A stretch of DNA of 64,000 bases, taken from assembly GCA_035288105.1 (NCBI GenBank), contig DATEAY010000013.1, positions 6,668 to 70,667 of the forward strand, written 5' to 3'. This DNA is from Candidatus Babeliales bacterium. Lineage in GTDB: Bacteria; Babelota; Babeliae; Babelales; Vermiphilaceae. The first letter of the stretch is position 1; the number at the start of each line of letters is the position of its first letter. A program made the position numbers and the translations under genes. Under the pieces are notes generated by a model. That model was not told the DNA's origin. It worked only from the letters and a program-made list of their open reading frames with translations, and did not search any database. Shown piece by piece: positions 36,769-51,933 of this stretch.

Positions 36769-36772
36769 TGCA

Positions 36773-36807
36773 AAAAAACACTTGGTAAATGCCAAGTGTT
36801 TTTTTTT
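36773..36807 (+). terminator. rho-independent terminator after aspS
   Basis: AAAAAACACTTGG-TAAATG-CCAAGTGTTTTTTTTT. Confidence 0.7.
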
Positions 36808-36832
36808 ATCTTGTAAAAAAGGAGTTAAAAAA

Positions 36833-38074
36833 ATGAAAATACAAGATATTCACGCACGTGAAATTTATGATTCTCGAGGAATCCCTACTGTTGAATGTGA
36901 TCTTTTTTTAAGTGATGGAATGATGGTTACATCATCTGTACCTTCTGGTATTTCGTGCGGTATGTACGAAGCCGTCGAATTACGTGATGGTGGTGATCGG
37001 TTGATGGGGCTTGGTGTTCAAAAAGCTGTTTCGACAATTGAAGATATCATAGCACCAATGTTAGTCGATAGGGTTCCAGATCTTATTACTTTTGATCTTG
37101 AATTGTTAGACCTTGATCAAACAATCAATAAATCTCATCTTGGAGCAAATGCTTTGTTAGTGATAAGTATTGCTGTGTGTAGAGCGCAAGCGTATGTAGA
37201 AGATCTTGAACTATACGAGTTTATTGCGTATGTTTCCAATTATCCCTCTGTTGCATTACCATGTCCAATGTTCAATATGCTCGGAGGTGGATTGCATGCA
37301 GACAATAATTTTCCTATTCAAGAACTACTTATTGTGCCAACAAAAGAACTTTCGTTCCACGAAGCTATGGAAACAGGTATTACTGTTTTTCATACATTAA
37401 AAAAGATTCTGAAATCTAAGAATAAGATAACTGCTATTGGCTACGAAGGAGGATTTGTTCCTCCTTTTAAAGATGCATTTGAAGCGCTTGATATACTCAT
37501 GGAAGCGATTGATCAATCTGGCAGAGGTAGCAATGTTATGATATCACTCGATGTTGCAGCTTCTCATTTATATAATCATGAAACAGGGTTGTACAAGTGG
37601 TTTGGGAGTGAAATAGCGGCACCTGAACTCGTAGAATGGTACAATTCACTCATTTCTCGTTATCCTATTTATTCAATAGAAGATGGTTTGGGTCAAACTG
37701 ATTGGCATGGATGGCACGAAATGAAGCGTAAAATAGGATCTCGCGTTAAATTGATTGGGGATGATTTATTTGTTACTGATCCACAACGCATTTGGAATGG
37801 CATAGAAAATGATTGTGCGACAAGTGTTCTTATTAAACCAAATCAAATTGGTACCGTAACTGAAACATTGCAAGCTGTCGCTTTATGTAAAGATAATGAT
37901 TGGGATGTTGTTGTTTCTCATAGATCAGGAGAAACAAATGATTCATTTATAGCAGACCTTGCTGTTGGTGTTAGCGCAGTCAATATCAAAGCAGGTGGGT
38001 GCTCTCGTGGTGAACGCATGGCAAAATACAATCGCTTGTTGAGTATAGAAGAAGAGTTGCTAGGAGCTTATTAA
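36833..38074 (+). CDS. eno: enolase
   Basis: MKIQDIHAREIYDSRGIPTVE..., SHRSGETND, IKPNQIGT. AAGGAG precedes the ATG at 36833; the track start at 36734 overlaps aspS and the terminator. Confidence 0.95.
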   Translation: MKIQDIHAREIYDSRGIPTVECDLFLSDGMMVTSSVPSGISCGMYEAVELRDGGDRLMGLGVQKAVSTIEDIIAPMLVDRVPDLITFDLELLDLDQTINKSHLGANALLVISIAVCRAQAYVEDLELYEFIAYVSNYPSVALPCPMFNMLGGGLHADNNFPIQELLIVPTKELSFHEAMETGITVFHTLKKILKSKNKITAIGYEGGFVPPFKDAFEALDILMEAIDQSGRGSNVMISLDVAASHLYNHETGLYKWFGSEIAAPELVEWYNSLISRYPIYSIEDGLGQTDWHGWHEMKRKIGSRVKLIGDDLFVTDPQRIWNGIENDCATSVLIKPNQIGTVTETLQAVALCKDNDWDVVVSHRSGETNDSFIADLAVGVSAVNIKAGGCSRGERMAKYNRLLSIEEELLGAY

Positions 38075-38125: not shown

Positions 38126-38572
38126 TTACTTTCTAAATTGACCCATGCCACCATCAATGATGTACGATTTATCTATATTGTTTTTGAGTGAAAGGCCTGT
38201 GGATGTTGTTCCACCGAGTCCCATGTATGTACCTGTTTGAGGATATACAGTAGGTCTTTTTGTAGGTTCAAATGTTAAGTATTTTGTATTTTCCCGTGGT
38301 TCTATTCTTTTAAAAATAGCCTGTCCAGCCATACCTTCTTCCTGTATCATGAGGAATGTAGGCTTATCATTAGGAACATTTCTTCTACCAGCTAATCCAG
38401 CAGGTATAACAAACATTGGTTGCTCGTCATCTCCGAATTTCATGACAACCTTGATTGGTTTAGCTGACTTGTTATATAATTCAAAATTTTCAACAGCTTG
38501 TACTGACGAGCAAAAACCAACAACTGAAGCAAGCACGAATGTTGTTACGATCATCATTTTGATACTTTTCAT
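38126..38572 (-). CDS. small secreted protein, paralog of 38608..39018
   Basis: Signal peptide ending SSVQA, then VENFELYNKSAKPIKV. Shares the post-signal NFEL(Y/V)N motif and size with its neighbour. Confidence 0.5.
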   Translation of the reverse strand: MKSIKMMIVTTFVLASVVGFCSSVQAVENFELYNKSAKPIKVVMKFGDDEQPMFVIPAGLAGRRNVPNDKPTFLMIQEEGMAGQAIFKRIEPRENTKYLTFEPTKRPTVYPQTGTYMGLGGTTSTGLSLKNNIDKSYIIDGGMGQFRK

Positions 38573-38607: not shown

Positions 38608-39018
38608 CTATTTTACGCTTTTGATGTCTGCAGCTTTAATATTTGTGTCTTTTGAGAAGAAAGATTTTTTTGCCGGTGATTGAGGTTTTAAATGTGGCGT
38701 ACCTGTATGGTTCCATTCTAAAAATATTGTTTTTGTTTTTTTTGGATCTATATCAAGGTGATAGTCATAACCTTTGGGGTTATGACCAGAAAACACTGTT
38801 AATATTGTTGTTTTATTCAGTGGTATAGAACCAGTATATTTGCCACCGTCCCAGTCTATAGTCCCTAGGTCAGTTTCTTTACCTGTACTTGAATCGTAGA
38901 GGGTAGCGCTGATTTCAACACCATTAGTTGAATTGTTCACCAATTCAAAGTTTGCTTTCGCCTGACCAATAGTTACTATTGCTACAATAGCAATCAATAT
39001 TTTTTTAATGTTTTTCAT
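38608..39018 (-). CDS. small secreted protein, paralog of 38126..38572
   Basis: Signal peptide ending GQAKA, then NFELVNNSTNGVEISA. Confidence 0.5.
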   Translation of the reverse strand: MKNIKKILIAIVAIVTIGQAKANFELVNNSTNGVEISATLYDSSTGKETDLGTIDWDGGKYTGSIPLNKTTILTVFSGHNPKGYDYHLDIDPKKTKTIFLEWNHTGTPHLKPQSPAKKSFFSKDTNIKAADIKSVK

Positions 39019-39194: not shown

Positions 39195-41627
39195 CTAACT
39201 GCTTAGAAAAGGATTAGGGTCGTCCTTAACAATATTCTTCAAATCAGGCAATTGTTCTATTTTATTTTCAGCAATAGAAATGCCCGCTTTTCGTGTTATT
39301 GGGTCAGAGCTATCGATAGTATCAAAATCAGGATTTTCTGATTTTTTTAAATCTTTATCTTGGATGGTATTTTTTCGCGCAGCAAGATTTTCATCTTTTT
39401 CACTAAATTTATCTAAAATTTCTGCTGTAGGAATTGGATCTTTAAAGAACCATCGTGTGATAGGATCTTTAAGAGAATCAAACAAATCTCCCCGTGAATA
39501 ATCTTTTGCAATATCAATGTAGTCTTGCGTGTATTCATTAATTCCTGCCCGCAGGCGAGGTTCAACAATCGTAGGTGAAATAAAAACAGTAAGGTTGTTT
39601 TTTCTTATATTGTTACTTTTTCGTTTGAAGAACCACCCAATTATTGGAATTTTTCCTAGTATTGGTGTTTCTGCAATAGTGCTAGTGGTGGTTGTTCTTA
39701 TTAGCCCACCCAGAGCAAAAATACCACCACTCTTTACATTAGCATTTGTCTCAAGTTTTCGAATGTTCTTAACGTTATTAGGACCATCTTGCCATTCATT
39801 TATATCAATAAAAACTTGCAAGTTAACTGTATTTGCTGTGCTAATGCGGGGGGTAATTTTAACTCTAAGATCAGCGGAAATAGGTTCAAACTTAATTGTT
39901 GTTGCACCACCATAATAATTGCTTGCAACATCTTTTACTTTGTCCTTGAGCCAGCGTGTTTGGCCAATAGAAACAATCGCTTCTTTGTTATGTCGTGTCA
40001 TAACATGGGGATGAGAAAGTATTTTTGAGTTAGAGAATAATTGTAGTAATTCCCAAATGCTCCAGGTGCTTCCATTATTATCATTTAATGAAAGTAGGGT
40101 GGTCCCAGCAGCAGCAAAGTCTGCAAGATTGTTTGTACCAGGAGAAGGATTTTCAAGAGCACTACTAGCTTTATAGGCATTTTTGAGAAGATCAGATTCA
40201 ATAGTGGTGGTTGCTACTGGAGGAAGTTCGCTTGGAATTGGCTGACCAAGCATTGCTGCCTGAAATTCTATATCGTCAGGCAGAGGCACTTTATCAGGCA
40301 TACGAGTCATCGCTCCTAATAAGCGTGCATCATCGACAGTTAAGTCTGCTATGAGTACTTCAATAAGAACCTGTTTTTGTGGAATATCTAATTCTTCAAT
40401 AAGCTTTTTTATTTGTTTCCAATCATCATTACGAGCAGCAATAACCAAATTATTACCTCCGTAAGAGATAAAACGTTGTTGTCCAATTTCAGTATTGGCT
40501 TCATCTTTGCCCAGATCTATTGGGCTATCAGTGTAAACAATTACTTTATCAAAAAAGCGTTCAACACCACCGCCTTTTTGCTCTCCTGCGCTTGCTTGGC
40601 TTGGTCCACCATTCTCTCCTCCTCCGCCTTGTACTATTTTTTGCAATACGGGAGCAAGATCGCGTGCATCAAGATATTGTAAATGGTAGACATGTAATAT
40701 TGATTCGCCTGTATCAGGAGCAACATCTATATATTTTTTGATAAAATCTTTTAAGCGTTCAACTGCTTGAGGCCGACCAAGTATGATAAGTTTATTCAAA
40801 TTATTCAAAGTGACTGGAACTATTTTGGTAAATCCAGAAAAATATGGTATTTCTTTTGCTTTTTTTGTATCAAGTCTATAAGGATTGGCGTTTTCTGATT
40901 TGATTAATTCTTTATTGATCAATTCTGCTACCAAATATGCAGAGGTGTGATGAAGGGAGATGATATCAACTTTTTCTTGAAAGCTCACTTGATCAAGTTC
41001 CATAATAATTTTCATAGCAGAGCGAATGTCATTCGCTTTTGCTATTAATAACAATCCGTTAGTGACAGAGTCTGCTTTTATCAAAGTATTTTTAGGTAAA
41101 AGATCTTTTAATATACCGTTTAACTCATTTTCTGGTTGATCAGAAACCTTTATGTTTGCAAGATAATAAAGATAACGAATTGGTTGATCAGTATTTGGTA
41201 AATCATCGGGATTAACGCCTATATAGGTTGGCATTGGTTCGCGCGATATTTCTTCTCCACTTTTGACAATTCTCATGATAGAGCCTTGTGGAACTATGAA
41301 AAATCCGGCAACATCTAGTAACGTATCAAGAAGGTTCCAAGCTTGAGCCAGAGGGATTTTTTTCTCTATGTGAAGTGTTACTTTTGTGTTTAGAGTTTCC
41401 CCTGGTGGAAAAATAACATTGACGTTTTTTAAAGCAGCTAATTGATTAATAATATTGGAAAGGTCTTCATTTTCGTAACTAAAAAGTACATCGGGAGTTT
41501 CTTGTTCTGTTGCAATTTCCTCAATGTCATCTGCTGTCTCTTGGCAATGAATTAGTGAGCCCGCACAAATGCTAAGGATGATAAAAGAAAAAAAGAGTTT
41601 TTGTTTCACAATATTTATTATTTTCAT
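39195..41627 (-). CDS. secretin (GspD/PilQ superfamily), copy 2
   Basis: C-terminal secretin signature GGIFALGGLIRTTTTSTIAETPILGKIPIIGWFFKRKSNNIRKNNLTVFISPTIV. N0-like start LFSYENEDLSNIINQLA... and repeated N-domain pattern. Signal peptide present. Confidence 0.85.
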   Translation of the reverse strand: MKIINIVKQKLFFSFIILSICAGSLIHCQETADDIEEIATEQETPDVLFSYENEDLSNIINQLAALKNVNVIFPPGETLNTKVTLHIEKKIPLAQAWNLLDTLLDVAGFFIVPQGSIMRIVKSGEEISREPMPTYIGVNPDDLPNTDQPIRYLYYLANIKVSDQPENELNGILKDLLPKNTLIKADSVTNGLLLIAKANDIRSAMKIIMELDQVSFQEKVDIISLHHTSAYLVAELINKELIKSENANPYRLDTKKAKEIPYFSGFTKIVPVTLNNLNKLIILGRPQAVERLKDFIKKYIDVAPDTGESILHVYHLQYLDARDLAPVLQKIVQGGGGENGGPSQASAGEQKGGGVERFFDKVIVYTDSPIDLGKDEANTEIGQQRFISYGGNNLVIAARNDDWKQIKKLIEELDIPQKQVLIEVLIADLTVDDARLLGAMTRMPDKVPLPDDIEFQAAMLGQPIPSELPPVATTTIESDLLKNAYKASSALENPSPGTNNLADFAAAGTTLLSLNDNNGSTWSIWELLQLFSNSKILSHPHVMTRHNKEAIVSIGQTRWLKDKVKDVASNYYGGATTIKFEPISADLRVKITPRISTANTVNLQVFIDINEWQDGPNNVKNIRKLETNANVKSGGIFALGGLIRTTTTSTIAETPILGKIPIIGWFFKRKSNNIRKNNLTVFISPTIVEPRLRAGINEYTQDYIDIAKDYSRGDLFDSLKDPITRWFFKDPIPTAEILDKFSEKDENLAARKNTIQDKDLKKSENPDFDTIDSSDPITRKAGISIAENKIEQLPDLKNIVKDDPNPFLSS

Positions 41628-41640
41628 TTACCTTGACTCC

Positions 41641-42204
41641 TTAGATGGAGGTACTTTCTATTTTTGGTAATAATGTCGAAATAGCCAGACCAACTTCAAT
41701 TGTTTTAGGTTTCTTTTTTGATTTAGTTATTTCAAGTCGATTTGTAGCTACGCGTGGATTTTGTTCAATTTTTTCTAATAATCTTGTTAAGTCTTGCATT
41801 GTCATGCCTTCAAATTTTGCACTCAATTCACTTTTTCGATAATTTTCTTCAAGATCTGTTGTTGTGATTTCTTCGGCAACTTCTTTATCTTTTAAGTTAA
41901 GTTCTAGTAACAGATCTTTAAAATAACCGGCAATTTTAAAATTAGGATCTTTGGCAAGAATTTCTTCAACTATTAACTGTTGTTGTTTGATTAGCGCATA
42001 TTTTTCTAGTATTTCCAAAACTTCTTCGCGAGTAGCATTAATGTTTTTTATCTTTTTTTGTAACGCATTTGTTGAGCTGTAATAGTACACAATAATAAGA
42101 ACAACGAGCACCACACACGTAGCACTATAACCGATTATATAGGTGTAAAAAGTTTTTAAGTCAGTTTTGTTAATAAAACTTTTTATTGGGTCTAGTAGCT
42201 TCAT
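41641..42204 (-). CDS. bitopic membrane protein, PilO/GspM-like
   Basis: Short cytoplasmic N-terminus, one TM (YIIGYSATCVVLVVLIIVYYY), a coiled coil, then a small periplasmic domain. Position and 4-nt start overlap with the upstream PilM/N-like gene. Confidence 0.4.
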   Translation of the reverse strand: MKLLDPIKSFINKTDLKTFYTYIIGYSATCVVLVVLIIVYYYSSTNALQKKIKNINATREEVLEILEKYALIKQQQLIVEEILAKDPNFKIAGYFKDLLLELNLKDKEVAEEITTTDLEENYRKSELSAKFEGMTMQDLTRLLEKIEQNPRVATNRLEITKSKKKPKTIEVGLAISTLLPKIESTSI

Positions 42205-43829
42205 AAAGGTTCCTCGCTACCGGTAGCTAATGTTAGTTTCATAGTAAATTGTGGCGTTTCTGGCGATTCAAGTGGGCGAAGCATTTTTGATTGTTCTAGT
42301 TCGCGTTCAAGAACTTTAAGTGCATCGTGATCTCTTACTTCAGCCTTAAGAGTTAAGATTCCTTCTGCTATAGTAATTTGATCGATTTTAAGGTCGATGC
42401 TTTTTCTGTCAATTTTTGAAGATAATTCAAGAAGGTATTGTAAAAATGATGCACGAGATTGATTTGAGAAGGCAAACCATCTTTTTTGTTGTTCTATTAC
42501 CTCTTTATTAGCGTCGTCAATAAGTTCTTCATCCAATAGTTTTGCATCTTCTAAATTTTTGAATGTTGTTGTAAGAGCAGAGAGTGCTTCTTGCTCAGAT
42601 GCAGCCATTTCTTTTTGAAGTTTACTTGTTTGTAGAGAATAATGAGTTATGAGTGCTGCAAATAATCCTATGGTAAGAACAACAAGCACAACTAATTGTT
42701 TCAGAAGCAATGAGTTGTCTTGTGTGATAAATTCCTTTTGAATGAGGTTGTAATCAACGGTTGTAGGCAGTGGTAATGTAGCGCTTGCACTAATAATATT
42801 GGCGGGTGTAATGAGGTTGCTATTATTAATGACGCACGATGGATCATTTCCCATTCCTTCAACATTGAATAGTTCGCAGCTGACTCCTGTCTTTTGTCCA
42901 ATAAATGGAACAAGACCTTTAATAAGCGATCCATTGCCAAGAAAAATAATTTTTGTCATTGGTTGTTTATTTAATAATTGTGTGCTGAATGAGTTCAGCG
43001 TAAAGTGAACAGAATCCCACCAATCTGCAACCATTTTTTCTATGGCTGGCGAATGTTCGTTGGTTTCCAGTCCAAATCGCACAAGATGTTCTACTGTTTC
43101 TTGTGGAGACTTATTAAGCTCTTGAGCAATTTGTTTAGTAAGTGCAACAATGCCTTTTGGTAGAGTACGTATTGTTTTCAGTTGTCCGTTAATCATGAGA
43201 GCGATAGCTGTTGAATGAGCAGTAATATTAATCAGTACAGTACCGCCTTGTAGTTGTTTATAAGCATCAATGTGTTTGTAGAGTCCGTAGACAGAAATCA
43301 TATCAACAGTAATAACTTCTGGTTTTATTCCCACAGCTTCAAACAGAGCTAAGTGTTGAATTATCTGTTGTTTTTGAACGGCAGTAACTAAAATTTCTGA
43401 GCTTTTTTCTTCAGGGATTTCTCTTGTTATAATAAAATCAACTGCAGCATCACGGAGAGAAAATGGTAAAAGTGGCTCTATTTCAAAACCTACGATCATG
43501 CTAATTTTATCGCGTGAGGTAAACGGAAGTTTCAGTTCTTTAAATACAACAATAGAGCTTGGCAATATCGTATGTATTTCGTCATAGTTACCAATCTTGG
43601 AAAAAATTGCAGTTAACGCTGGCGAAGTTCGATCGAAATCTTCTTCCGATACTTCTTCTGATATTTTTTCTTCAACAATCAATTCTATGGTACTCGTGGT
43701 GCCTTTGATACGAGTTTTTGTCGCAATGATATGTGTTTTATTAATTTCAATACCAACAACAATTTTTGAAAAAAGATAATAAGATTTTATTTTTTCTGGT
43801 AAAAAAATATCTTTAATCAACGCGCTCAT
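42201..43829 (-). CDS. PilM-like actin-fold domain fused to a TM plus PilN-like periplasmic region (GspL-like architecture)
   Basis: VVGIEINKTHIIA..., ILPSSIVVFKELKLPF, FEAVGIKPEVITVDMISVYGL match the PilM pattern. TM LVVLVVLTIGLFAALITHY at about aa 375-395, then a coiled coil. Confidence 0.6.
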   Translation of the reverse strand: MSALIKDIFLPEKIKSYYLFSKIVVGIEINKTHIIATKTRIKGTTSTIELIVEEKISEEVSEEDFDRTSPALTAIFSKIGNYDEIHTILPSSIVVFKELKLPFTSRDKISMIVGFEIEPLLPFSLRDAAVDFIITREIPEEKSSEILVTAVQKQQIIQHLALFEAVGIKPEVITVDMISVYGLYKHIDAYKQLQGGTVLINITAHSTAIALMINGQLKTIRTLPKGIVALTKQIAQELNKSPQETVEHLVRFGLETNEHSPAIEKMVADWWDSVHFTLNSFSTQLLNKQPMTKIIFLGNGSLIKGLVPFIGQKTGVSCELFNVEGMGNDPSCVINNSNLITPANIISASATLPLPTTVDYNLIQKEFITQDNSLLLKQLVVLVVLTIGLFAALITHYSLQTSKLQKEMAASEQEALSALTTTFKNLEDAKLLDEELIDDANKEVIEQQKRWFAFSNQSRASFLQYLLELSSKIDRKSIDLKIDQITIAEGILTLKAEVRDHDALKVLERELEQSKMLRPLESPETPQFTMKLTLATGSEEPL

Positions 43830-46405
43830 GTTTGTGTCTCCTTGTCACGCAAGAATTGTGCCAGAGATAATTGTGTGCGCTTTTTGTTGTGCATAGTTTC
43901 TATAAGGCTATTGTGTGCTTGTCCACTTGTTTCTTTCAATTTTTCAGAAGATGCTTTATTTGCTATTTCTGCAGCTTCTGCTTGTTGGATGAGTGTAGCT
44001 TGTTCTTTTTTTGCTTGGCGTTCAAAAATAAGTCCTTCTACAGATCCTTTTGCTCTGTCGGCTTTATCTTGGAAAAATAGTCTATGAATAGGATCGCGAT
44101 TAACTGCGGTGGATTCCATATAATTGATAGTATTTTGGTAGTCATTAATATGTTCACTGGTGAACGCTTTCATTTCTTCTCCCTTATTTGACTCAATGAT
44201 GCTTGTTGAGATAAGAACGAGAAGGCTCTGTTTGATATTTATTTTACGTTTATTTTTAAAGAACCAACCAAGGATTGGGATGTCGCCAAGTATAGGAACC
44301 TTTGTTTCTAGGTTTTGTATATTATTTCTAATTAAACCACCAAGTGCGAGAACTTCTTTGTTGGCAACAATAGCATTTGTATAGATCTCGCGAGTATTTT
44401 GTGTTGCGTTTGCTCCTGATGCAGAAGTTGCACTATTATCTGGATTAGCAAAATCGTTAATGGTAATTTTTATAGTAAGTGCTATCATTCCATCAGAGTT
44501 AATTTGTGGAGTAATGGTAACTTCAAGCAACGCATTATTGGCATCAAAAGCATTCTGCCTGGTATCTGTTGCTACAATTTCACTCGTAATAATACGACGT
44601 TGCTCACCAATTGAAACGGTTGCTTTTGCATTGTTGGTTGCAAGTATAAATGGGTTCGATACAACTTCTGCATCAGTAATTGTTTGTAATGCCTGGAATG
44701 CTCCCCATACACCAAAAGCATCTTTGCCAAGAGTAAGGAATGTTGTTCCAGGGACAGCTCCGATAACAAGATTGACAAGGTTGCCAAGTAATCTTTCTGC
44801 TCCTGTTACAGCATTACCAGGGCGTGTTACGACAGGAGAATCTCCAAACATCCCTGATGTTTGGAATTTAATATTGTTGCCAAGAAGACCATTAGGACCA
44901 GGTTCCTTGCTTCTTATTTGAGCTCCAAGATTTTTTGTGTCATTAAGATCTACTGATGCGATTAAAACCTCAATAGCTGCTTGCGGTTGCTTTGCATCAA
45001 GCTGTTTAATAATTTTTTCTGCTTTTATGTAGTCATCGTAATGACCTTTTATAATGATTCTATTTGTTTCTTTTTCAGCAATAAATGCCATTGGTCGCAT
45101 GTATTGATCTACTCCACGTACACCACCAAATGTTCCTGCAGCTGTTCCTGCGCCAAAAGCCGTAACTTTAGACATAATGTCAACAATTGTTTCAGCATCA
45201 GCATATTTAAGTTGATAGGTGTACAAAGGGGAATATGATTGATCAAGCTCAACATCAATATATTTTACAATGAAATGTTCAATCTTTTTAATTGCGGTTT
45301 GAGGTCCGAGCAATATAAGAGTATTTGTTCTTGGGTCAGCAATAATACGTGTATTTTCGGGAAAGAAAAGAGATGTCGGCTGCTTTTTTGTAAAAAATCG
45401 TGATGTTGTTTCTTCTTTAGGCAAAAGTTCTTGATATAATTTTTGTACTGCATCTGCATCAGCATTGCGTAGTTTGAGAATGGACATTGATTCTGGAACG
45501 CTTACTTTATCAAGTTCTCTGACAATAGCCATAAGCATTTTGATGTTATATGCCTTATCGGTGAGAATAAAGCCTTTATGTTCTCTGAGTGCGATAAGGC
45601 CTTGCGAGCTGCTGCTACGCAATGGTCCAACAATTTCCATGATGGTATCTACTGATGCATTTTCTAAAAAATAAACATAACGAATTAATTCATCCGTATC
45701 GGGCAATGTTTTATAATCAACACCAATAAACGTTGGCAGCGGAGATTTTCTCGCAGCATCTATTGTAGTAATACGAAAAATTTTTGGATCTGCTTGAGGT
45801 GTGATTGCAAATCCAGCTATATCAAGAAACGTAACAAAAAGATTCCACGATTCTTTTTTAGAAAGCGGTATGTTTGTTTTGAATGATATCTTGTTATTTT
45901 TTATTGCTTTTTTACCCTGCGGAAGTGGTGAAAGAGCATCGTCACTAATAAAGGTAACTTCAAAGATATCTTCAATTTGTTTAACAAAATTTTGAAGATC
46001 TGCGTTTTCAAAATTAAGCTCTATACTATCTTCTTCATCTTCACTAACAGTAAGAGGCATCTCTACTGGTTGTGTTGCTTTATCAACAGTAGCAGGACTT
46101 TTTGGACTCACAAATGGATCATCATATTGTACAATAGGTTGTTGTAATTTATTTTGTAATTGCGGAGCACCTGTTGCGTTTGCAGCGGCATTAGGCCTTT
46201 GAGCAAAACTGGTAGAGGTGCTCGTTACAGTTTGTGCTTTAGTTGGCGCAGTTTGGCTTACGTATGCATCAATATTCATATGAGTATTAACGCTTTTATC
46301 TGTCGATTTTTTTTTGCGATAGCGTTTTCTACTTCCCGTTTCTGTTATACTCATAACGGTTGCAAGAATAAAAACAAAACAGAAATGAACTCTAAATTTA
46401 TTCAT
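43826..46405 (-). CDS. secretin (GspD/PilQ superfamily), copy 1
   Basis: VLALGGLIRNNIQNLETKVPILGDIPILGWFFKNKRKINIKQSLLVLISTSII. N0-like IELNFENADLQNFVKQIEDIF.... Signal peptide and a long Ser/Thr/Ala/Gln linker. Confidence 0.85.
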   Translation of the reverse strand: MNKFRVHFCFVFILATVMSITETGSRKRYRKKKSTDKSVNTHMNIDAYVSQTAPTKAQTVTSTSTSFAQRPNAAANATGAPQLQNKLQQPIVQYDDPFVSPKSPATVDKATQPVEMPLTVSEDEEDSIELNFENADLQNFVKQIEDIFEVTFISDDALSPLPQGKKAIKNNKISFKTNIPLSKKESWNLFVTFLDIAGFAITPQADPKIFRITTIDAARKSPLPTFIGVDYKTLPDTDELIRYVYFLENASVDTIMEIVGPLRSSSSQGLIALREHKGFILTDKAYNIKMLMAIVRELDKVSVPESMSILKLRNADADAVQKLYQELLPKEETTSRFFTKKQPTSLFFPENTRIIADPRTNTLILLGPQTAIKKIEHFIVKYIDVELDQSYSPLYTYQLKYADAETIVDIMSKVTAFGAGTAAGTFGGVRGVDQYMRPMAFIAEKETNRIIIKGHYDDYIKAEKIIKQLDAKQPQAAIEVLIASVDLNDTKNLGAQIRSKEPGPNGLLGNNIKFQTSGMFGDSPVVTRPGNAVTGAERLLGNLVNLVIGAVPGTTFLTLGKDAFGVWGAFQALQTITDAEVVSNPFILATNNAKATVSIGEQRRIITSEIVATDTRQNAFDANNALLEVTITPQINSDGMIALTIKITINDFANPDNSATSASGANATQNTREIYTNAIVANKEVLALGGLIRNNIQNLETKVPILGDIPILGWFFKNKRKINIKQSLLVLISTSIIESNKGEEMKAFTSEHINDYQNTINYMESTAVNRDPIHRLFFQDKADRAKGSVEGLIFERQAKKEQATLIQQAEAAEIANKASSEKLKETSGQAHNSLIETMHNKKRTQLSLAQFLRDKETQT

Positions 46406-46420
46406 ATTTTTTTACTCAAT

Positions 46421-47521
46421 TCAACTGCTACTATGCATTGGAGCGCTGCCTTTTTGGAACATCATTTGATGATCTGCTTTTTTTATTTTATCTACAGTAG
46501 GAGCAAATGCATAATGTTGTTGTCTAATGGTGTCATTTTTTTTGTGCAAAAGGAAAGCTGTTTCTTGTTTTTCTTCGATATCATTTTCTTCGTTTTCTAC
46601 TTGCGTGAAGTCTTCCAGAGTATAGACAATAGTAACTTCCTTATTTTTGCGAATGAGTTTTATTGTTACCGTATTTCCAGCTTTGAGTGAGGTAATATTC
46701 TTGTAAATAGCAAGCCGCTCTTCTGTTGTCTGTGCAGGAATACCATTGATAGAGAGAACTATATCACCGTTTTGCAGACCCATCAGTCCACCAAATGGCG
46801 ATTTGCTTAAATTTCCTATTCGTAATCCAACACTTTTTCCTTGTTGATATGCAGTTGTTGCATTCAGAAGATCAATACATTCTGTTAAGTTTTTTATTTG
46901 TTCGGTAAATGATTTAGGATTGATGAGATAATTATTTGGAGTAATTTTTTGAATTACTGTATCCCATTCATGAGCAAGATTATAAGCTGGATCAATTTTT
47001 GCATCCTGTTCTCGCAAGTAGAGCACTTCCTGTTGGCCATTCAATCGCAAGAAAATAATTTTATTTTTAAAGATTCTAATCAGTTGTGCGTCTTGAATAA
47101 GATCACCAACTTTATAGGTTCCTTCTTGCATTGTTTTGTTGTCTTGCACCATAGCTCTATTTTTTGAATCATTAGAACTCACAACAATAATTCCCTTAAG
47201 TGTTATTTGCAAAGGATCAAGAAATTCCGGTTCAACAACAGCAGGGATAGTTATTTTTTGTTGCGCTGGAGGTGGAGGGAAAGGAATGGAAGCTTCAAGT
47301 TGTTTTATTTGAGGAAGGTCTTTAACATACGTTCCAAAAAGATCGTCTTCATATATTTTTTTGATATTGATAGCAACTCTTTGTTCTTTTCTTGGTGATA
47401 ATTGTGCAGGTTCAATGTCTACTCGCTCAGGAATTTTGATGCTTGATACATAAATAAATGCAAAGGCAGCCAGGACTAAAGAAAGTAGTCCAAGATTTAT
47501 GATCCAAAAAGGATGTTTCAT
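46421..47521 (-). CDS. GspC-like protein (TM, HR/PilP-like domain, PDZ domain)
   Basis: TM FWIINLGLLSLVLAAFAFIYV. ITLKGIIVVSSNDSKNRAMVQDNKTMQEGTYKVGDLIQDAQLIRIFKNKIIFLRLNGQQEVLYL (GspC HR/PilP pattern). PDZ-like GLRIGNLSKSPFGGLMGLQNGDIVLSINGIP. Confidence 0.65.
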   Translation of the reverse strand: MKHPFWIINLGLLSLVLAAFAFIYVSSIKIPERVDIEPAQLSPRKEQRVAINIKKIYEDDLFGTYVKDLPQIKQLEASIPFPPPPAQQKITIPAVVEPEFLDPLQITLKGIIVVSSNDSKNRAMVQDNKTMQEGTYKVGDLIQDAQLIRIFKNKIIFLRLNGQQEVLYLREQDAKIDPAYNLAHEWDTVIQKITPNNYLINPKSFTEQIKNLTECIDLLNATTAYQQGKSVGLRIGNLSKSPFGGLMGLQNGDIVLSINGIPAQTTEERLAIYKNITSLKAGNTVTIKLIRKNKEVTIVYTLEDFTQVENEENDIEEKQETAFLLHKKNDTIRQQHYAFAPTVDKIKKADHQMMFQKGSAPMHSSS

Positions 47522-47645
47522 CGGCGATTCCTTGCATTATTTTTTTTACTTTTTTCACAATAACGCTCTTGTCTTATTCTTGTCAAGTATACCAACAGAT
47601 GTTATTTTTACGAAGAATAAGAATTTATAAGAACAAGATATTTCA

Positions 47646-48692
47646 TTATGGTGTAGGAATAGTGCTTATTATTTTCTTAATAATAGTATCTGCAGATACG
47701 TTATCAGCCTCTGCCTCGTATGTTAAGTGTAATCGATGTCGTAATGCTGGAAGACATATTGCTTTAACATCATCAGGAGTTACGTAGTGACGTTTTGCTA
47801 AAAATGCGTGTGTTTTTGCTGCATGATACAGAGCAAGTGTTGCTCGTGGTGAAACACCATAACTAATATATGAAGTAAGATCATTCAGTTTATAATCAGC
47901 TGGTTTGCGTGTTGCAAAAACAATAGCAACGATATAGTTGATTATTTTTTCGTCTACATAAATTGATTGAGTAAGTTTTTGTGATTCTAGAATGTCGTTT
48001 TTTGTTAATACTTGCGAAATTGTGTTGGTGCTCAGTGAGCGATATAAAATTTCACGTTCTTCAAATATGGTAGGATAATCAACATGTATCTTGAACAAAA
48101 ATCGATCTAATTGTGCTTCGGGTAAACGATACGTACCTTCTTGTTCAACGGGATTTTGTGTTGCAAAAACTAAAAATGGTGTATCAAGTTTGTAGGTATG
48201 AGAACCAATGGTAACTTGTTGTTCTTGCATGGCTTCGAGCAATGCAGCTTGCACTTTTGCAGGGGCACGATTGATTTCATCAGCTAGGACCAAATTTGCA
48301 AAAATAGGTCCTTTTTTTGTTTCAAAATCATGTGTTTTTGGATTGAAGATTAACGTACCGATTAAATCTGACGGTAACAAATCTGGGGTGAACTGAATTC
48401 TATTAAAAGAAAGTCCGAGTGCAGATGCAACGGCTTTAATCATTGTTGTTTTTGCAACACCAGGAACACCTTCGAGCAATATGTGTCCTTTGCACAAAAT
48501 GGCATTAACTATTAGGTTAATAATATGATGTTGCCCAACAATGACCTTACTAATCTCTGTTGGTAGATCGTTGAAACGGTTACTTTCTAATTTTATTTGT
48601 TCAATGTCGGCTTGATTTGGCATTACACTGTTTATCATAGTAATATCTTTTTTAAAAAAATAATCATGGTAACTTATAGTATACGTTAACAT
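47646..48692 (-). CDS. MoxR-family AAA+ ATPase
   Basis: ILLEGVPGVAKTT, LADEINRAPAKVQAALLEAMQE, GTYRLPEAQLDRF. The true start is probably the internal MINSVMPNQ (about 48638). Confidence 0.9.
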   Translation of the reverse strand: MLTYTISYHDYFFKKDITMINSVMPNQADIEQIKLESNRFNDLPTEISKVIVGQHHIINLIVNAILCKGHILLEGVPGVAKTTMIKAVASALGLSFNRIQFTPDLLPSDLIGTLIFNPKTHDFETKKGPIFANLVLADEINRAPAKVQAALLEAMQEQQVTIGSHTYKLDTPFLVFATQNPVEQEGTYRLPEAQLDRFLFKIHVDYPTIFEEREILYRSLSTNTISQVLTKNDILESQKLTQSIYVDEKIINYIVAIVFATRKPADYKLNDLTSYISYGVSPRATLALYHAAKTHAFLAKRHYVTPDDVKAICLPALRHRLHLTYEAEADNVSADTIIKKIISTIPTP

Positions 48693-48701
48693 TATCTTTA
48701 A

Positions 48702-49247
48702 ATGAGTTCAATAAGGAGCGTTATGATTCTTTCAGGAAACGAAATTAGACGACGTTTAGGTAAAGAGCTTTTTATAGAGCCATTCAATCAATCACAACTT
48801 GGCCCAAATAGTTATAATTTACGCTTGCATAATGAACTAGTAGTGTACGATGAACCTTTTCTTGATATGAAGAAAGAGCATCAAATAGCAACAATTACTA
48901 TTCCAGAAGAAGGATTGCTGCTTGAAGCGGGTAAGCTTTACTTAGGCAGAACTGTTGAATACACCAGAACTGATACATTAGTTCCTATGATTGAAGGTCG
49001 TTCTTCAATTGGGCGTCTTGGTTTATTTATTCATGTTACTGCTGGCTTTGGTGATGTTGGGTTTCGTGGGTATTGGACGCTTGAAATATTCTGTGTTCAA
49101 CCAGTTCGCATTTACCCAGGTGTTGAAATATGTCAGATTTTTTATCACACCATTGAAGGTGATTACGCAAAATATTCTAGCAATAAATATCAAAATAATC
49201 GTGGTATTCAACCGAGTATGTTGTACAAGGATTTTCAAAAAGAATAG
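48702..49247 (+). CDS. dcd: dCTP deaminase
   Basis: ILSGNEI..., EGRSSIGRLGLFIHVTAGFGDVGFRGYWTLEI. Confidence 0.85.
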   Translation: MSSIRSVMILSGNEIRRRLGKELFIEPFNQSQLGPNSYNLRLHNELVVYDEPFLDMKKEHQIATITIPEEGLLLEAGKLYLGRTVEYTRTDTLVPMIEGRSSIGRLGLFIHVTAGFGDVGFRGYWTLEIFCVQPVRIYPGVEICQIFYHTIEGDYAKYSSNKYQNNRGIQPSMLYKDFQKE

Positions 49248-49255
49248 TTAAAAAT

Positions 49256-49318
49256 GCGCTCATTCTGAACTTGTTGAAGAATAGCGCTCAAACCCTTCGA
49301 CAAGCTCAGGGCGAGCGG
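49256..49318. repeat. palindromic dispersed element, copy 4 (hybrid type A left arm / type B right arm)
   Basis: GCGCTCATTCTGAACTTGTTGAAGAAT (49256-49282) and CCCTTCGACAAGCTCAGGGCGAGCGG (49293-49318), with a 10-nt loop. Lies between convergent dcd and mlaF. Confidence 0.85.
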
Positions 49319-49324
49319 GATTAA

Positions 49325-50119
49325 TTACGCCTTATCTTTAAAATAAGAAATTTCGTGAGTAATCGGACCTTCTGTTAATCCTCTAATGAATTGGTACACA
49401 TACGGATTGTCCGATTCCCATATCGTTTTTGCATCACCAAAGTATTGAATTTTGCCATCGTGTAGCAAAGCAACTTTGTCTGCATATTTGAATGTTTCAA
49501 CATCATGAGAAATGATGACAGATGTTATTTTGAGTTGTTTTTGCATGTCAAACATAAGTTCATGAATAACGCGAGAAGTGATAGGATCGAGTCCTGTTGT
49601 CGGCTCATCGTACAAAATAATTTCTGGATTTGTCACTAGTGTTCGTGCCAACCCAACTCGTTTCCTCATACCACCTGATAATTCTGAAGGATATTTATAC
49701 AAAGTGTTTTCTGAAAGTTGTACTAATGCAAGTTTTTCCTTAACAATGGGCATAACTTCATCATGATGTATTCCTCGTTCAATAAGCGTTATGCCAATAT
49801 TTTCATAAACATTTAATGAATCAAGCAGTGCAGCAAATTGAAATACATAACCAAATTTACTCAAACAGGCATCGAGTTCTTTGCCTTTTAGTGTGGTGAT
49901 ATCGGTTCCATCAATAACGATGCTACCGGAAGTTGGTTTAATAAGTCCAATAACTTGTTTGAGTAGAACTGATTTACCTTCACCAGATCGACCAATAACA
50001 ATGGTCATCAATCCCTCAGGAATGTCAAGATTGACCCCTCGAGTTACCCAATGGCCTTCAAATTCCTTGCATAGATCAACAATTTTAATTTTGGTTTTAT
50101 TGGAGCTTTTTTTGTCCAT
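49325..50119 (-). CDS. mlaF: ABC transporter ATP-binding protein, MlaF-like
   Basis: GRSGEGKS Walker A, LSGGMRKRVGLAR signature, ILYDEPTTGLD Walker B. Directly downstream of the MlaE-like permease gene. Confidence 0.8.
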   Translation of the reverse strand: MDKKSSNKTKIKIVDLCKEFEGHWVTRGVNLDIPEGLMTIVIGRSGEGKSVLLKQVIGLIKPTSGSIVIDGTDITTLKGKELDACLSKFGYVFQFAALLDSLNVYENIGITLIERGIHHDEVMPIVKEKLALVQLSENTLYKYPSELSGGMRKRVGLARTLVTNPEIILYDEPTTGLDPITSRVIHELMFDMQKQLKITSVIISHDVETFKYADKVALLHDGKIQYFGDAKTIWESDNPYVYQFIRGLTEGPITHEISYFKDKA

Positions 50120-50130
50120 TACAATTCTTT

Positions 50131-50910
50131 CTACAGGTGCTCAAGCATTTTTGTTAAGAAGTAGTTACTAACTAAAATTAAGATTGAACTTGCAACGACA
50201 CTTTGTGTTGTTGCGGTACCAACACCACGAGCACCACCATGTGTGTAAATTCCCTTGTATGTTCCTACCCATGAAAGAATTAACCCAAATATGGCTGCTT
50301 TTTTCAGACCGCCATGAATATCTGTTAATTCAACATAGTTGCGAATGCTACTTTCGTAATCTTCTGGGCTCAATTCTAAAACATATACACATACAATGTA
50401 GCCACCAATGATACCAAAAAACATAGAAAAGAGTGTGAGAAAAGGAAGTATGATAGTGCTTGCAACAATGCGTGGTACAACAAGGTACTGAAAAACATTA
50501 ATGCGCAACGTTGTCAAAGCGTCAACCTGTTCGGTGATGATCATGGTACCAATTTCAGCAGTAATAGCTGATCCTGCACGACCAGTTACCATGAGTGCTG
50601 TGAGTACTGGACCAAGTTCACGAATCAGACCAAGTGCAACAATTGCGCCGATAAATTGTTCTCCACCAACGCGTTGAAAGCCGATGTATGTTTGGAGAGC
50701 AAGAACCATCCCGGTGAACAATCCTGTTAGAACTACAATACTGAGTGATTCAACGCCGATACGGTTCATTTGAACGAATGTTTTAGAAACTTTGAGTTTT
50801 GTAGTAAAAAAGGTTTTTACAGCTTCTAAAAAAAAGAGAGTAAATTCACCTAAATAAGTGCATGTATTGATAACTGATGCACCCAAAAAGTTAACAAATT
50901 GAATGAACAC
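50131..50910 (-). CDS. mlaE: ABC transporter permease, MlaE-like
   Basis: IRELGPVLTALMVTGRAGSAITAEIGTM..TEQVDAL is the MlaE/Ttg2B family signature. Confidence 0.85.
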   Translation of the reverse strand: MFIQFVNFLGASVINTCTYLGEFTLFFLEAVKTFFTTKLKVSKTFVQMNRIGVESLSIVVLTGLFTGMVLALQTYIGFQRVGGEQFIGAIVALGLIRELGPVLTALMVTGRAGSAITAEIGTMIITEQVDALTTLRINVFQYLVVPRIVASTIILPFLTLFSMFFGIIGGYIVCVYVLELSPEDYESSIRNYVELTDIHGGLKKAAIFGLILSWVGTYKGIYTHGGARGVGTATTQSVVASSILILVSNYFLTKMLEHL

Positions 50911-50936
50911 TTATTACTACCTTTTTTTATGCATGT

Positions 50937-51266
50937 TTATTCAGTATCTTCGTCGGAAGAATCTACAGGAGCTGGTATTTGTGGTATTTGTTGTTGAATC
51001 ACATTTTTGCTGTTGATGTATCTAAATTTTTTATGTTCTGTTGACTTCATAAGAGAAAGAATCATTGCGCCAACCATAAAAATCGATCCGAGAACCCAGG
51101 TAATTTTTTGGAAAAGATCTTGTCCGCCGCCGCCGCCAAAAATCATTTGCGCTCCGCCGCCAAGTCCACCTAAACCAAGACCGCCTTTTCCTTTTTGCAT
51201 AAGGATAATGAGTACGAGCAAGAAGCAATTAATTAAATAAAGGGTGAGTAAAAATCCGTATAACAT
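50937..51266 (-). CDS. secG: preprotein translocase subunit SecG
   Basis: LLVLIILMQKGKGGLGLGGLGGGAQMIFGGGG, then a second TM segment; the neighbourhood includes tpiA. Confidence 0.8.
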   Translation of the reverse strand: MLYGFLLTLYLINCFLLVLIILMQKGKGGLGLGGLGGGAQMIFGGGGGQDLFQKITWVLGSIFMVGAMILSLMKSTEHKKFRYINSKNVIQQQIPQIPAPVDSSDEDTE

Positions 51267-51397
51267 GTATTTTCCTTCTTATTGTAGTATCTACTATTGT
51301 AAGTATAGCATGATTAATTTTTTTATAAAATTGGTGTTTTTATGATAGGTATTTCTTCTTATTTTTACTACACTGGATCGCATAGAAAGGGCTTGTC

Positions 51398-51928: not shown

Positions 51929-51933
51929 AAAAA

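What the first reader, a model, noticed from the sequence alone, without database searches (positions are those of the whole stretch)
39195..47521. Single operon with two paralogous secretins: a gspC-gspD-like front end joined to a pilM/N-pilO-pilQ-like back end, with no ATPase, platform or pilin genes
Five same-strand genes are packed with 4-nt start/stop overlaps (43826-43829, 42201-42204) and gaps of 13 and 15 nt, so they are almost certainly co-transcribed and translationally coupled. The order is GspC-like (TM + HR/PilP-like + PDZ), secretin 1 (859 aa), PilM-actin-fold/TM/PilN-like fusion (GspL-like architecture), PilO/GspM-like, secretin 2 (810 aa). Both secretins carry the canonical C-terminal motif GGLIR...PILG(D/K)IPI(L/I)GWFFK. 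They also share private motifs: P(L/M)PT(F/Y)IGV..(D/K).LP(D/N)TD..IRY(V/L)Y(F/Y)L near N0/N1, and DPI(H/T)R(L/W)FF(Q/K)D in a C-terminal tail. They are therefore diverged paralogs, not a recent duplication. Canonical T2SS loci have one gspD followed by E, F and G-K. Canonical T4P loci are pilMNOPQ with one pilQ. Here the C-D pair (T2SS syntax) and the MN-O-Q triplet (T4P syntax) sit in one transcription unit, and no GspE/PilB ATPase, GspF/PilC or prepilin genes occur within at least 8 kb on either side. Three readings are possible: a hetero-oligomeric or dual-channel secretin machine, two outer-membrane conduits sharing one inner-membrane alignment complex, or a lineage-specific merger of T2SS and T4P alignment subcomplexes.
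Basis: partly seen in the sequence, partly recalled or inferred. Interest (0 to 1): 0.75.

Follow-up and report, generated by a model that had tools for sequence, protein, structure and literature searches.

The report
Conserved two-secretin T2SS scaffold operon
This is the conserved operon, found throughout the intracellular-parasite phylum Dependentiae (TM6), that encodes the envelope scaffold of their only known secretion/pilus machine. Unusually, it carries two anciently duplicated outer-membrane secretin channels instead of one, a gene count already noted in 2016 but still unexplained.

Summary
Five tightly packed minus-strand genes (47521..39195) encode:
- a GspC-like protein;
- secretin 1;
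- a PilM-like/TM/periplasmic fusion with GspL architecture;
- a PilO/GspM-fold protein;
- secretin 2.

The window comes from a Candidatus Babeliales (Dependentiae/TM6) genome.

The "T2SS front end joined to a T4P back end" reading is not supported. Both secretins are GspD-type, not PilQ-type. They are paralogs from one ancient duplication within this lineage.

The same gene order occurs in every related locus that has enough sequence (about 30 complete loci, anchor identity down to 25%). No ATPase, platform or pilin gene lies within ±10 kb of any of them.

Published COG tables for Babela and TM6SC1 show those genes elsewhere in the genome: PulE/PilB ×2, PulF ×2, PilM ×1, prepilin peptidase ×1, PilT ×0.

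Yeoh et al. 2016 already reported "two gspD, no pilQ" in all TM6 genomes. The operon architecture does not appear in the papers I could search.

Most likely the two secretins form two channels that share one inner-membrane alignment complex. This is inferred, not shown.

Interest is moderate: a new variant of a known kind, partly anticipated in the literature.

The parts
46421..47521 (-). GspC-like protein (366 aa): N-terminal TM anchor, HR/T2SSC domain, PDZ domain
   Evidence: Pfam T2SSC 29.4 bits (cut-off 27) and PDZ_2 28.9 bits (cut-off 27). NCBIfam GspC_delta 85 bits, below its cut-off of 150. Hydrophobic segment at about 4-31. First gene of the unit in all related loci.
43826..46405 (-). 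Secretin 1 (859 aa), GspD-type: signal peptide, about 100-aa disordered extension, N0, Secretin_N domains, secretin barrel, 120-aa C-tail
   Evidence: Secretin 123 bits, Secretin_N 61.5 bits, N0 29.7 bits. TIGR02517 GspD 274 bits vs PilQ model 142 bits. PDB GspD 143.5 bits vs PilQ 69 bits. All 33 position-1 orthologs form one clade. Median pre-N0 region is 125 aa.
42201..43829 (-). PilM-like actin-fold domain + single TM + coiled-coil/periplasmic domain (542 aa): a PilM-PilN fusion with GspL architecture
   Evidence: PilM_2 69 bits (cut-off 27); T2SSL 23.4 bits (below cut-off 25.5). Profile hit to M. xanthus PilM, 75.7 bits. TIGR01709 GspL C-terminal half 20.6 bits, below cut-off. TM segment at about 372-399. 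ATGA overlap with secretin 1.
41641..42204 (-). PilO/GspM-fold bitopic protein (187 aa)
   Evidence: No Pfam, NCBIfam or PDB sequence hit. AF2 model pLDDT 84.8. Foldseek top hits: P. aeruginosa PilO 2rjz (E 8.8e-5, TM 0.66), then PulM 8ab1, EpsM 1uv7 and Amuc_1100. TM segment at about 19-48. ATGA overlap with the upstream gene.
39195..41627 (-). Secretin 2 (810 aa), GspD-type paralog: signal peptide, N0 close to the N-terminus, Secretin_N domains, secretin barrel, 120-aa C-tail
   Evidence: Secretin 118 bits, Secretin_N 64 bits, N0 29.1 bits. TIGR02517 GspD 286 bits vs PilQ model 127 bits. PDB GspD 108 bits vs PilQ 58 bits. 31% identical to secretin 1. Orthologs found at 43-100% identity, and the sources that name an organism give Babeliales/Dependentiae.
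47557..47586 (-). Promoter-like site (TTGACA-18-TATTGT) in the 124-nt gap upstream of the GspC-like gene; a candidate operon promoter
   Evidence: Consensus scan, 10 of 12 matches; sequence read. This is weak evidence: the number of such matches in the region is no greater than in shuffled sequence.
47646..48692 (-). MoxR-family AAA+ ATPase (348 aa), invariably directly upstream on the same strand; not shown to belong to the system
   Evidence: AAA_3 218.6 bits, AAA_lid_2, bpMoxR. Upstream of the GspC-like gene in nearly every locus that reaches that far. The whole block TIM-SecG-MlaE-MlaF-(Dcd)-MoxR-operon-Eno is syntenic, so a specific linkage cannot be separated from background synteny.

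Best explanation
What it is (shown): the conserved 'envelope scaffold' operon of the Dependentiae (TM6) type II secretion / type IV filament machinery. It encodes:
- an inner-membrane GspC-like protein (HR + PDZ);
- a GspL-architecture protein whose cytoplasmic domain is PilM-like;
- a PilO/GspM-fold partner;
- two full-length GspD-type secretins that come from one ancient duplication inside this lineage.

The motor ATPases, platform proteins, pilins and prepilin peptidase are encoded elsewhere, scattered around these small genomes.

How it most likely works (inferred):
- The genes are co-transcribed from a promoter upstream of the GspC-like gene and are partly translationally coupled.
- Each secretin forms its own homo-oligomeric outer-membrane channel.
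- Both channels dock, through their conserved N0 domains and shared lineage-specific motifs, onto the single GspC / PilM-N / PilO inner-membrane assembly.
- Each channel serves one of the two GspE/PilB-GspF/PilC motor pairs found in these genomes.
- One route secretes Sec-exported effectors in T2SS fashion. The other extrudes a non-retractile pilus or pseudopilus, or acts in DNA uptake.

Which paralog does which job is not known.
For: Identity of the parts.

Organism: Candidatus Babeliales/Dependentiae, from source names.

Conservation:
- The same MoxR-C-S1-L-M-S2 order in 4 divergent genomes.
- The same order in a deep lineage and in every sufficiently long locus among 55 metagenome loci, with anchor identity 25-99%.
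- Tight spacing is conserved.

Both copies are maintained:
- Ortholog identities are near-equal (S1 69/49/50/62% vs S2 66/50/47/59%), and paralog identity is 30-34% in all genomes.
- All domains are conserved in both copies. 47 columns are fixed in both, always with the same residue, including private LP...R and DP...FF motifs.

Single ancient duplication:
- Position-1 proteins form one clade.
- 24 of 30 position-2 proteins form another (bootstrap 84).
- Copies from one lineage are never sisters.

Motor genes elsewhere and in pairs:
- Babela/TM6SC1 COG counts are PulD 3/2, PulE-PilB 2/2, PulF 2/2, PilM 1/1, PulO 1/1, PilT 0/0.
- One PulF paralog is an orphan gene in Babela and in two further lineages.
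- No E/F/G hits or prepilin motifs in the window or within ±10 kb in any related locus.

Copy number is flexible: L011 has extra S2-type copies and Babela has three PulD. This argues for independent channels rather than a fixed-stoichiometry heteromer.

Literature:
- 44% of Chromulinavorax CDS carry signal peptides, so a route across the outer membrane is needed.
Against: - The pairing 'two motors, two channels, one alignment complex' rests on COG counts from only two genomes. It was not checked in this genome, which is not available beyond 64-71 kb.
- PilN/PilO/GspL/GspM-type proteins are too divergent for COG detection, so a second alignment complex could have been missed.
- Obligate co-transcription and translational coupling of both secretins would fit a single shared complex at least as well as two separately acting machines.
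- No pili were seen on Babela by EM (cited).
- Monophyly of the two paralogs was tested only against two E. coli outgroups with NJ. The six deep-lineage position-2 proteins are unresolved (bootstrap about 50).
Confidence: 0.5

Rival explanations
1. The two paralogs co-assemble into one machine. This could be a hetero-oligomeric ring, or two coaxial or adjacent rings built on a single inner-membrane complex.
For: - Both genes sit in one translationally coupled operon in all loci.
- Evolutionary rates are near-equal.
- Lineage-private motifs in the N0-N1 junction and C-tail are shared, and could be mutual or common-partner contacts.
- There is only one GspC-like and one PilM-like gene per genome.
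Against: - To my knowledge no secretin heteromer is known, and searches for the phrases found none.
- 31% identity is low for a mixed 12-15-mer barrel.
- Secretin copy number varies: there are extra S2-type copies in L011 and three PulD in Babela. That is hard to reconcile with fixed stoichiometry.
- Two ATPase-platform pairs exist.
Confidence: 0.15
2. Only one secretin is the working channel of a single T2SS-like machine. The other paralog has a derived role, for example as an envelope tether, a gate/cap-like accessory or a stage-specific spare.
For: - The secretin-1 type alone carries a variable disordered N-terminal extension: median 125 aa before N0, against 52 aa for the secretin-2 type.
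- One representative has Ig/cadherin-like repeats in that extension.
- The N0 domain of secretin 2 is somewhat less conserved (0.37-0.42 vs 0.48-0.54) and often falls below Pfam detection in orthologs.
Against: - Both copies keep every domain, including the barrel and the GGLIR...PILGDIPILGWFF motif, under similar constraint.
- Neither copy shows degeneration.
- Both are retained in all lineages surveyed.
Confidence: 0.15
3. The operon is a recombinational merger of two originally separate systems: a T2SS gspC-gspD module and a T4P pilMN-pilO-pilQ module.
For: - The gene order resembles C-D followed by M/N-O-Q.
- The cytoplasmic domain of the 542-aa protein matches PilM profiles and structures rather than GspL.
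- The 187-aa model matches PilO slightly better than PulM/EpsM.
Against: - Secretin 2 is GspD-type, not PilQ-type, and has no AMIN domain.
- The two secretins group together against E. coli GspD and HofQ and share private fixed residues.
- There is no PilP-like lipoprotein.
- By established knowledge, GspL and GspM are themselves homologs of PilM+PilN and PilO. A PilM-like GspL therefore does not require a merger.
Confidence: 0.05
4. The five genes form a self-sufficient conduit that works without a type IV filament motor, for example as a passive or chaperone (MoxR)-assisted export or uptake pore.
For: - No motor, platform or pilin genes lie within ±10 kb in any locus.
- A MoxR AAA+ gene is always upstream.
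Against: - GspE/PilB, GspF, pilins and prepilin peptidase are present elsewhere in Dependentiae genomes, and they would have no other outer-membrane exit.
- PilM/GspL-type proteins are known to couple to the ATPase (established knowledge).
- MoxR adjacency is part of a much longer conserved synteny block.
Confidence: 0.05

Closest known systems
Canonical type II secretion system (gspC-O operon, e.g. E. coli K-12 Gsp, Klebsiella Pul)
   Same: - GspC with HR + PDZ directly upstream of a GspD-type secretin that has N0 and Secretin_N domains.
- A bitopic GspL-architecture protein followed by a GspM/PilO-fold protein.
- Tight operon packing.

   Different: - Two secretins instead of one.
- The cytoplasmic domain of the L-like protein matches PilM rather than T2SSL.
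- gspE, F, G-K and O are absent from the locus and scattered elsewhere.
- Both secretins have C-tails of about 120-140 aa with a private DP..FF motif, where E. coli has a roughly 50-aa S-domain region.
- All NCBIfam equivalog scores fall below their cut-offs.
Type IVa pilus alignment/secretin operon pilMNOPQ (e.g. P. aeruginosa, M. xanthus; E. coli hofMNOPQ)
   Same: - The order 'PilM/N-like, PilO-like, secretin' in the second half of the unit.
- A PilM_2 match above the Pfam cut-off, and a match to M. xanthus PilM.
- A PilO fold for the 187-aa protein.

   Different: - PilM and PilN equivalents are fused.
- There is no PilP lipoprotein; the only HR-domain protein is GspC-like, with a TM anchor and a PDZ domain.
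- The secretin lacks AMIN domains and is GspD-type.
- No PilT retraction ATPase in Babela or TM6SC1.
Genomes with several GspD-family paralogs, e.g. P. aeruginosa XcpQ / HxcQ / orphan XqhA (from my own knowledge, not tested here)
   Same: More than one GspD-type secretin in one organism. A paralog can serve a second machine or substitute for the first.
   Different: Those paralogs sit in separate loci, each with its own machine or as an orphan. Here both are in one operon, flanking the only alignment-complex genes, and the arrangement is fixed across a whole phylum.
Akkermansia Amuc_1098-Amuc_1102 type IV pilus-like cluster
   Same: A large PilM-like protein, a PilO-like protein (Amuc_1100 appears among the Foldseek hits) and a secretin in one cluster. 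There are weak NCBIfam hits to the Amuc_1101 and Amuc_1098 families.
   Different: Scores are far below the family cut-offs (51 vs 650, and 56 vs 750). That cluster has a single secretin and no GspC-like gene.

Membership tests
Type II secretion system (Gsp/T2SS) | GspD-type secretin with N0 plus N1-N3 and a secretin barrel | tested here: met
   Both proteins align end to end with TIGR02517 (positions 1-594 and 2-592 of 600), at 274 and 286 bits. They are best hits to solved GspD structures. Caveat: both are below the equivalog cut-off of 351 bits, so they are divergent members.
Type II secretion system (Gsp/T2SS) | GspC with HR domain (and usually PDZ) encoded next to gspD | tested here: met
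   Pfam T2SSC 29.4 bits (cut-off 27) and PDZ_2 28.9 bits (cut-off 27). The gene lies directly upstream of secretin 1 in all loci. NCBIfam GspC models score below their cut-offs.
Type II secretion system (Gsp/T2SS) | GspL and GspM inner-membrane components | tested here: inconclusive
   The architecture (cytoplasmic actin-like domain, TM, periplasmic domain) fits GspL. However, T2SSL scores 23.4 bits, below its cut-off of 25.5, and PilM_2 is the stronger match. The 187-aa protein has the PilO/GspM fold only by predicted structure. hhalign against E. coli GspL and GspM was uninformative.
Type II secretion system (Gsp/T2SS) | GspE ATPase, GspF platform, GspG-K pseudopilins and GspO peptidase, usually in the same locus | tested here: not met
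   Absent from the 64-kb window and from ±10 kb in all related loci. They are present elsewhere in Babela and TM6SC1 according to published tables. Their presence in this genome is not testable with the sequence available.
Type II secretion system (Gsp/T2SS) | One secretin per machine | tested here: not met
   Two full-length GspD-type secretins per operon in all lineages. Some lineages have extra copies.
Type IVa pilus PilMNOPQ module | PilQ-type secretin (AMIN domains, PilQ-specific profile) | tested here: not met
   The TIGR02515 PilQ model scores 142 and 127 bits against a cut-off of 284, always lower than GspD. No AMIN domain at E <= 0.1. PDB PilQ scores are about half the GspD scores.
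Type IVa pilus PilMNOPQ module | Separate cytoplasmic PilM, bitopic PilN and PilO, lipoprotein PilP | tested here: not met
   The PilM-like domain is fused to the TM/periplasmic part. A PilO fold is present. There is no PilP-like lipoprotein; the only HR-domain protein is the TM-anchored, PDZ-bearing GspC-like protein.
Type IVa pilus PilMNOPQ module | PilT retraction ATPase in the genome | not testable with these tools
   The rest of this genome is not available. Published COG tables give PilT = 0 in Babela and TM6SC1.
Dependentiae/TM6 'two gspD' gene set (Yeoh et al. 2016) | Two GspD homologs and no PilQ in a TM6 genome | tested here: met
   The organism is assigned to Candidatus Babeliales by source names. 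There are two GspD-type genes and no PilQ-type gene in the window. This matches the statement in PMC4776705.

The most novel reading that the evidence does not exclude
The two secretin paralogs are obligate partners in one trans-envelope machine. They would form either a mixed ring or two coupled rings on a single GspC/PilM-N/PilO platform. That would be the first heteromeric or dual-channel secretin apparatus. It would serve as the sole effector-export and filament route of a whole phylum of intracellular parasites.
Probability: 0.15. Interest if true: 0.8.

Novelty: new variant of a known kind. Interest (0 to 1): 0.5.

Why it matters
Dependentiae are widespread obligate parasites of protists. 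According to the literature, a T2SS-type system is their only recognisable secretion machine. A very large share of their proteins carry signal peptides, including many ankyrin-repeat candidate effectors. The apparatus encoded here is therefore probably the gateway for host manipulation.

All well-studied T2SS and T4P machines use one secretin. An operon that has kept two diverged secretins around a single alignment complex since the base of a phylum poses a clear structural question: how is one inner-membrane platform matched to two outer-membrane channels, or do the two co-assemble?

The question is open (raised in 2016) and is now sharply testable. The exact genes, their invariant order and the paralog-specific features are defined.

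The practical limits are that these organisms grow only inside hosts and have no genetics. Progress would depend on cryo-ET, heterologous expression or structure prediction.

Tried and rejected
1. Rfam scan of the window: no matches.
2. Profile search of the 187-aa protein against PDB sequences: only chance-level hits. Structure prediction was needed instead.
3. hhalign of the PilM-like and PilO-like alignments against single E. coli GspL, GspM, HofM, HofN and HofO: probabilities 0.1-25%, uninformative.
4. AF2 of the 542-aa protein. The single-sequence model had pLDDT 36.5 and was not used.
5. The genome-contig scan returned only one relative, a frameshifted nanopore MAG. The metagenome scan was far more useful.
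6. The supplementary tables of Yeoh et al. are not held. The Babela tables were used instead.
7. Tested whether MoxR is specifically linked to the operon. Rejected as unprovable, because the whole TIM-SecG-MlaEF-MoxR-operon-Eno block is syntenic.
8. Tested whether the two small ORFs downstream of secretin 2 are missed pilins. Rejected: they have ordinary Sec signal peptides and no prepilin motif.
9. Tested whether the N-terminal extension of the secretin-1 type hides AMIN-like domains, which would make it PilQ-like. No AMIN was found, and only one representative has Ig/cadherin-like repeats.
10. The 'INT' secretin clade first looked like a pre-duplication outgroup. Its genomic context showed it is simply the position-1 secretin of a deeper lineage.
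11. Literature searches for 'two secretins' or a heteromeric secretin found nothing relevant.

Full report
**Observation.**
The two 4-nt overlaps are ATGA start/stop overlaps preceded by AAGGAG and GAGGAA ribosome-binding sequences. The other gaps are 15 and 13 nt. A TTGACA-18-TATTGT promoter-like site lies in the 124-nt gap upstream of the first gene. This is weak evidence, because such matches are no more frequent here than in shuffled sequence.

**What the five proteins are.**
- Gene 1 passes the Pfam cut-offs for T2SSC (29.4 bits) and PDZ_2 (28.9 bits). It has an N-terminal TM segment, so it is GspC-like.
- Both large proteins are complete secretins, with N0, Secretin_N and Secretin domains.
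- Both align end to end with the GspD model TIGR02517, at 274 and 286 bits. They score only 142 and 127 bits on the PilQ model.
- Against solved structures, GspD chains score 143.5 and 108 bits, and the best PilQ chains 69 and 58 bits.
- No AMIN domain is detected. So secretin 2 is not PilQ-like; both copies are divergent GspD-type proteins, below the equivalog cut-off of 351 bits.
- The 542-aa protein has a PilM-type actin-fold domain: PilM_2 69 bits, and a profile hit to M. xanthus PilM at 75.7 bits. It then has one TM helix at about 372-399 and a C-terminal part with a sub-threshold GspL match. This is a PilM-PilN fusion with GspL architecture.
- The 187-aa protein has no detectable sequence relatives outside its own family. 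A confident AF2 model (pLDDT 84.8) matches P. aeruginosa PilO best (E 8.8e-5), then PulM, EpsM and Amuc_1100.

**The two secretins are old paralogs, both maintained.**
- They are 31% identical over 723 aa, E = 3e-83.
- In five genomes, paralog identity is a constant 30-34%.
- Orthologs diverge at almost the same rate: S1 69/49/50/62% and S2 66/50/47/59%.
- Across about 30 lineages, every domain of both copies is conserved. 47 alignment columns are fixed within both paralogs, always with the same residue. These include lineage-private positions (LP...R at the N0-N1 junction, DP..FF in the C-tail) that differ from E. coli GspD.
- The consistent architectural differences are small. The secretin-1 type has a longer, poorly conserved region before N0 (median 125 vs 52 aa). 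Both have C-tails of about 125-140 aa, against about 50 aa in E. coli GspD.
- The long extensions contain no AMIN domain.

**Organism and prior knowledge.**
- Source names assign the proteins to Candidatus Babeliales / Dependentiae (TM6).
- Yeoh et al. 2016 (PMC4776705) wrote that pilQ is absent in TM6 while two gspD copies occur in all genomes. They suggested that one copy may substitute for PilQ and left the question open.
- Deeg et al. [quoted passage not shown] They also report that 44% of CDS carry signal peptides.
- Pagnier et al. [quoted passage not shown]
- None of these passages describes the operon architecture. Phrase searches for two or heteromeric secretins found nothing relevant.
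- The broad TFF survey of Denise et al. 2019 does not mention Dependentiae.

**Conservation of the arrangement.**
- Four divergent genomes, with secretin-2 identity 64, 55, 48 and 43%, have the same order MoxR-GspC-S1-PilMN-PilO-S2.
- A metagenome scan anchored on the PilM-like protein returned 55 loci at 25-99% identity.
- Local HMM annotation shows the same order in every locus that reaches far enough (about 30 complete). There is no exception in which either secretin is missing.
- A group of secretins that first looked intermediate between the paralogs proved to be the position-1 secretin of a deeper lineage with the same operon.
- In an NJ tree with 100 bootstraps, all these secretins group against E. 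coli GspD and HofQ (bootstrap 89).
- All 33 position-1 proteins form one clade (bootstrap 50). 24 of 30 position-2 proteins form another (bootstrap 84).
- Six deep-lineage position-2 proteins are unresolved. The two copies of one lineage are never sisters.
- This indicates one ancient duplication and no recent gene conversion. The limitation is that only two outgroups and a distance method were used.

**Where the rest of the machine is.**
- No ORF in the 64-kb window matches GspE, GspF, GspG or GspO, or carries a prepilin motif. The same is true within ±10 kb of the anchor gene in all related loci.
- The published COG table for Babela / TM6SC1 lists PulD 3/2, PulE-PilB 2/2, PulF 2/2, PulG 3/0, PilV 2/0, PilM 1/1, PulO 1/1 and PilT 0/0.
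- In Babela, pilin genes with a classic FTLIE motif and an orphan PulF lie hundreds of kilobases apart.
- The same orphan PulF context recurs in two other lineages.
- Scattering is therefore the norm in this phylum. The absence of motor genes near the operon says nothing about independence from them.

**Mechanism.**
Shown: a conserved, co-oriented, tightly packed unit encoding one GspC-like, one PilM-N/GspL-like and one PilO/GspM-like protein, plus two intact GspD-type secretins.

Inferred: the two secretins form separate channels that share the single alignment complex. Each would work with one of the two ATPase-platform pairs, one for secretion of Sec-exported effectors and one for a non-retractile filament or DNA uptake.

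Three things favour separate channels:
- variable secretin copy number (extra S2-type copies in L011, three PulD in Babela);
- the 2:2 motor counts;
- the absence of any known secretin heteromer.

Against it, strict co-transcription and shared private motifs would also fit co-assembly. The motor counts come from only two genomes. I therefore put about 0.5 on the stated explanation, 0.15 on co-assembly, 0.15 on a derived non-channel role for one copy, and 0.05 each on the T2SS/T4P merger and on a motor-independent conduit.

**Comparison and novelty.**
The system works like a T2SS-type scaffold but fails several membership features of both canonical families:
- it is not a single-secretin system;
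- it has no local E/F/G-K/O genes;
- the L-like protein is PilM-like;
- it has no PilQ, PilP or PilT.

It is best filed as a new variant of the T2SS/type IV filament kind, specific to Dependentiae. What this analysis adds:
- both copies lie in one operon that flanks the only alignment-complex genes;
- both are GspD-type sister paralogs from one ancient duplication;
- the order is invariant across the lineage;
- the merger reading can be set aside.

Interest is moderate (0.5). It would be high only if the two paralogs prove to co-assemble.

Noticed in passing
window 38126..38572 and 38608..39018 (minus strand); also L019:4790-11300, L003, L004, L015, L022, L029: Two paralogous small secreted proteins (136 and 148 aa) lie directly downstream of secretin 2. 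They have a Sec signal peptide and the mature N-terminus NFEL(V/Y)N, with no Pfam or NCBIfam hit. The family recurs at this position in several related loci and is amplified to 8 tandem copies in L019. They may be substrates or accessory factors of the secretin system.
   Followed up: partly
L011:10001-14476 (JGI 2140918012 contig00016): Directly after a normal GspC-S1-PilMN-PilO-S2 operon there is a 1491-aa ORF containing two further complete secretin units. Both are S2-type and closest to that locus's own S2. This could be a real tandem amplification and fusion, or a sequencing artefact that joined two genes. It fits the three PulD copies in Babela.
   Followed up: partly
window 47646..52674 and 36734..38074; L010, L053, L054, L059, L062, L065: A long block TIM-SecG-MlaE-MlaF-(Dcd)-MoxR-[secretin operon]-...-enolase is syntenic across very divergent lineages. 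In the deep lineages MlaF is followed directly by MoxR on the same strand. This may be an envelope-biogenesis supercluster. A functional link between the MoxR AAA+ ATPase and secretin assembly is possible but untested.
   Followed up: partly
window 42385..42412 (minus strand): The best sigma-70-like match in the region (TTGACA-16-TAAAAT, 11 of 12) lies inside the 3' part of the PilM-like gene, about 180 nt upstream of the PilO-like start. It could be an internal promoter for the PilO-like gene and secretin 2, or a chance match.
   Followed up: no
window 22423..23556 (+): A ComEC-like ORF of only 377 aa. It has DUF4131 plus the first 149 of 270 positions of the Competence domain, and is followed by an unrelated C11 peptidase gene. 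It is either a short or truncated DNA-uptake channel or a remnant. This is relevant to a possible DNA-uptake role for one secretin.
   Followed up: no
window ~25000..27000: GC skew switches from negative (1-26 kb) to positive (26-64 kb), with the cumulative minimum near 26 kb. The predominant gene strand changes in the same area, and there is a 584-nt intergenic gap at 25789..26371. This pattern is typical of a replication origin.
   Followed up: no
window 16648..19347 and 19437..22220 (minus strand): Two tandem, paralogous, double-length M16 (insulinase/pitrilysin-type) peptidases of 899 and 927 aa.
   Followed up: no
window 52916..53827 (minus strand): A palmitoyl-protein-thioesterase-like gene (Pfam Palm_thioest on the identical contig). 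To my knowledge this family is mainly eukaryotic, so it may be a host-derived or host-targeting enzyme.
   Followed up: no
protein P0369 (representative library, 5532 aa): A 5532-aa predicted protein with 26 separate stretches matching secretin 1. It is probably an assembly or gene-calling artefact, or a highly repetitive locus.
   Followed up: no
L003 (OY969561.1, 1.2-Mb chromosome MAG): The orthologous operon is broken into many short ORFs: S1 in four pieces, the PilM-like gene in three and S2 in two. This most likely reflects long-read frameshift errors rather than pseudogenisation.
   Followed up: no
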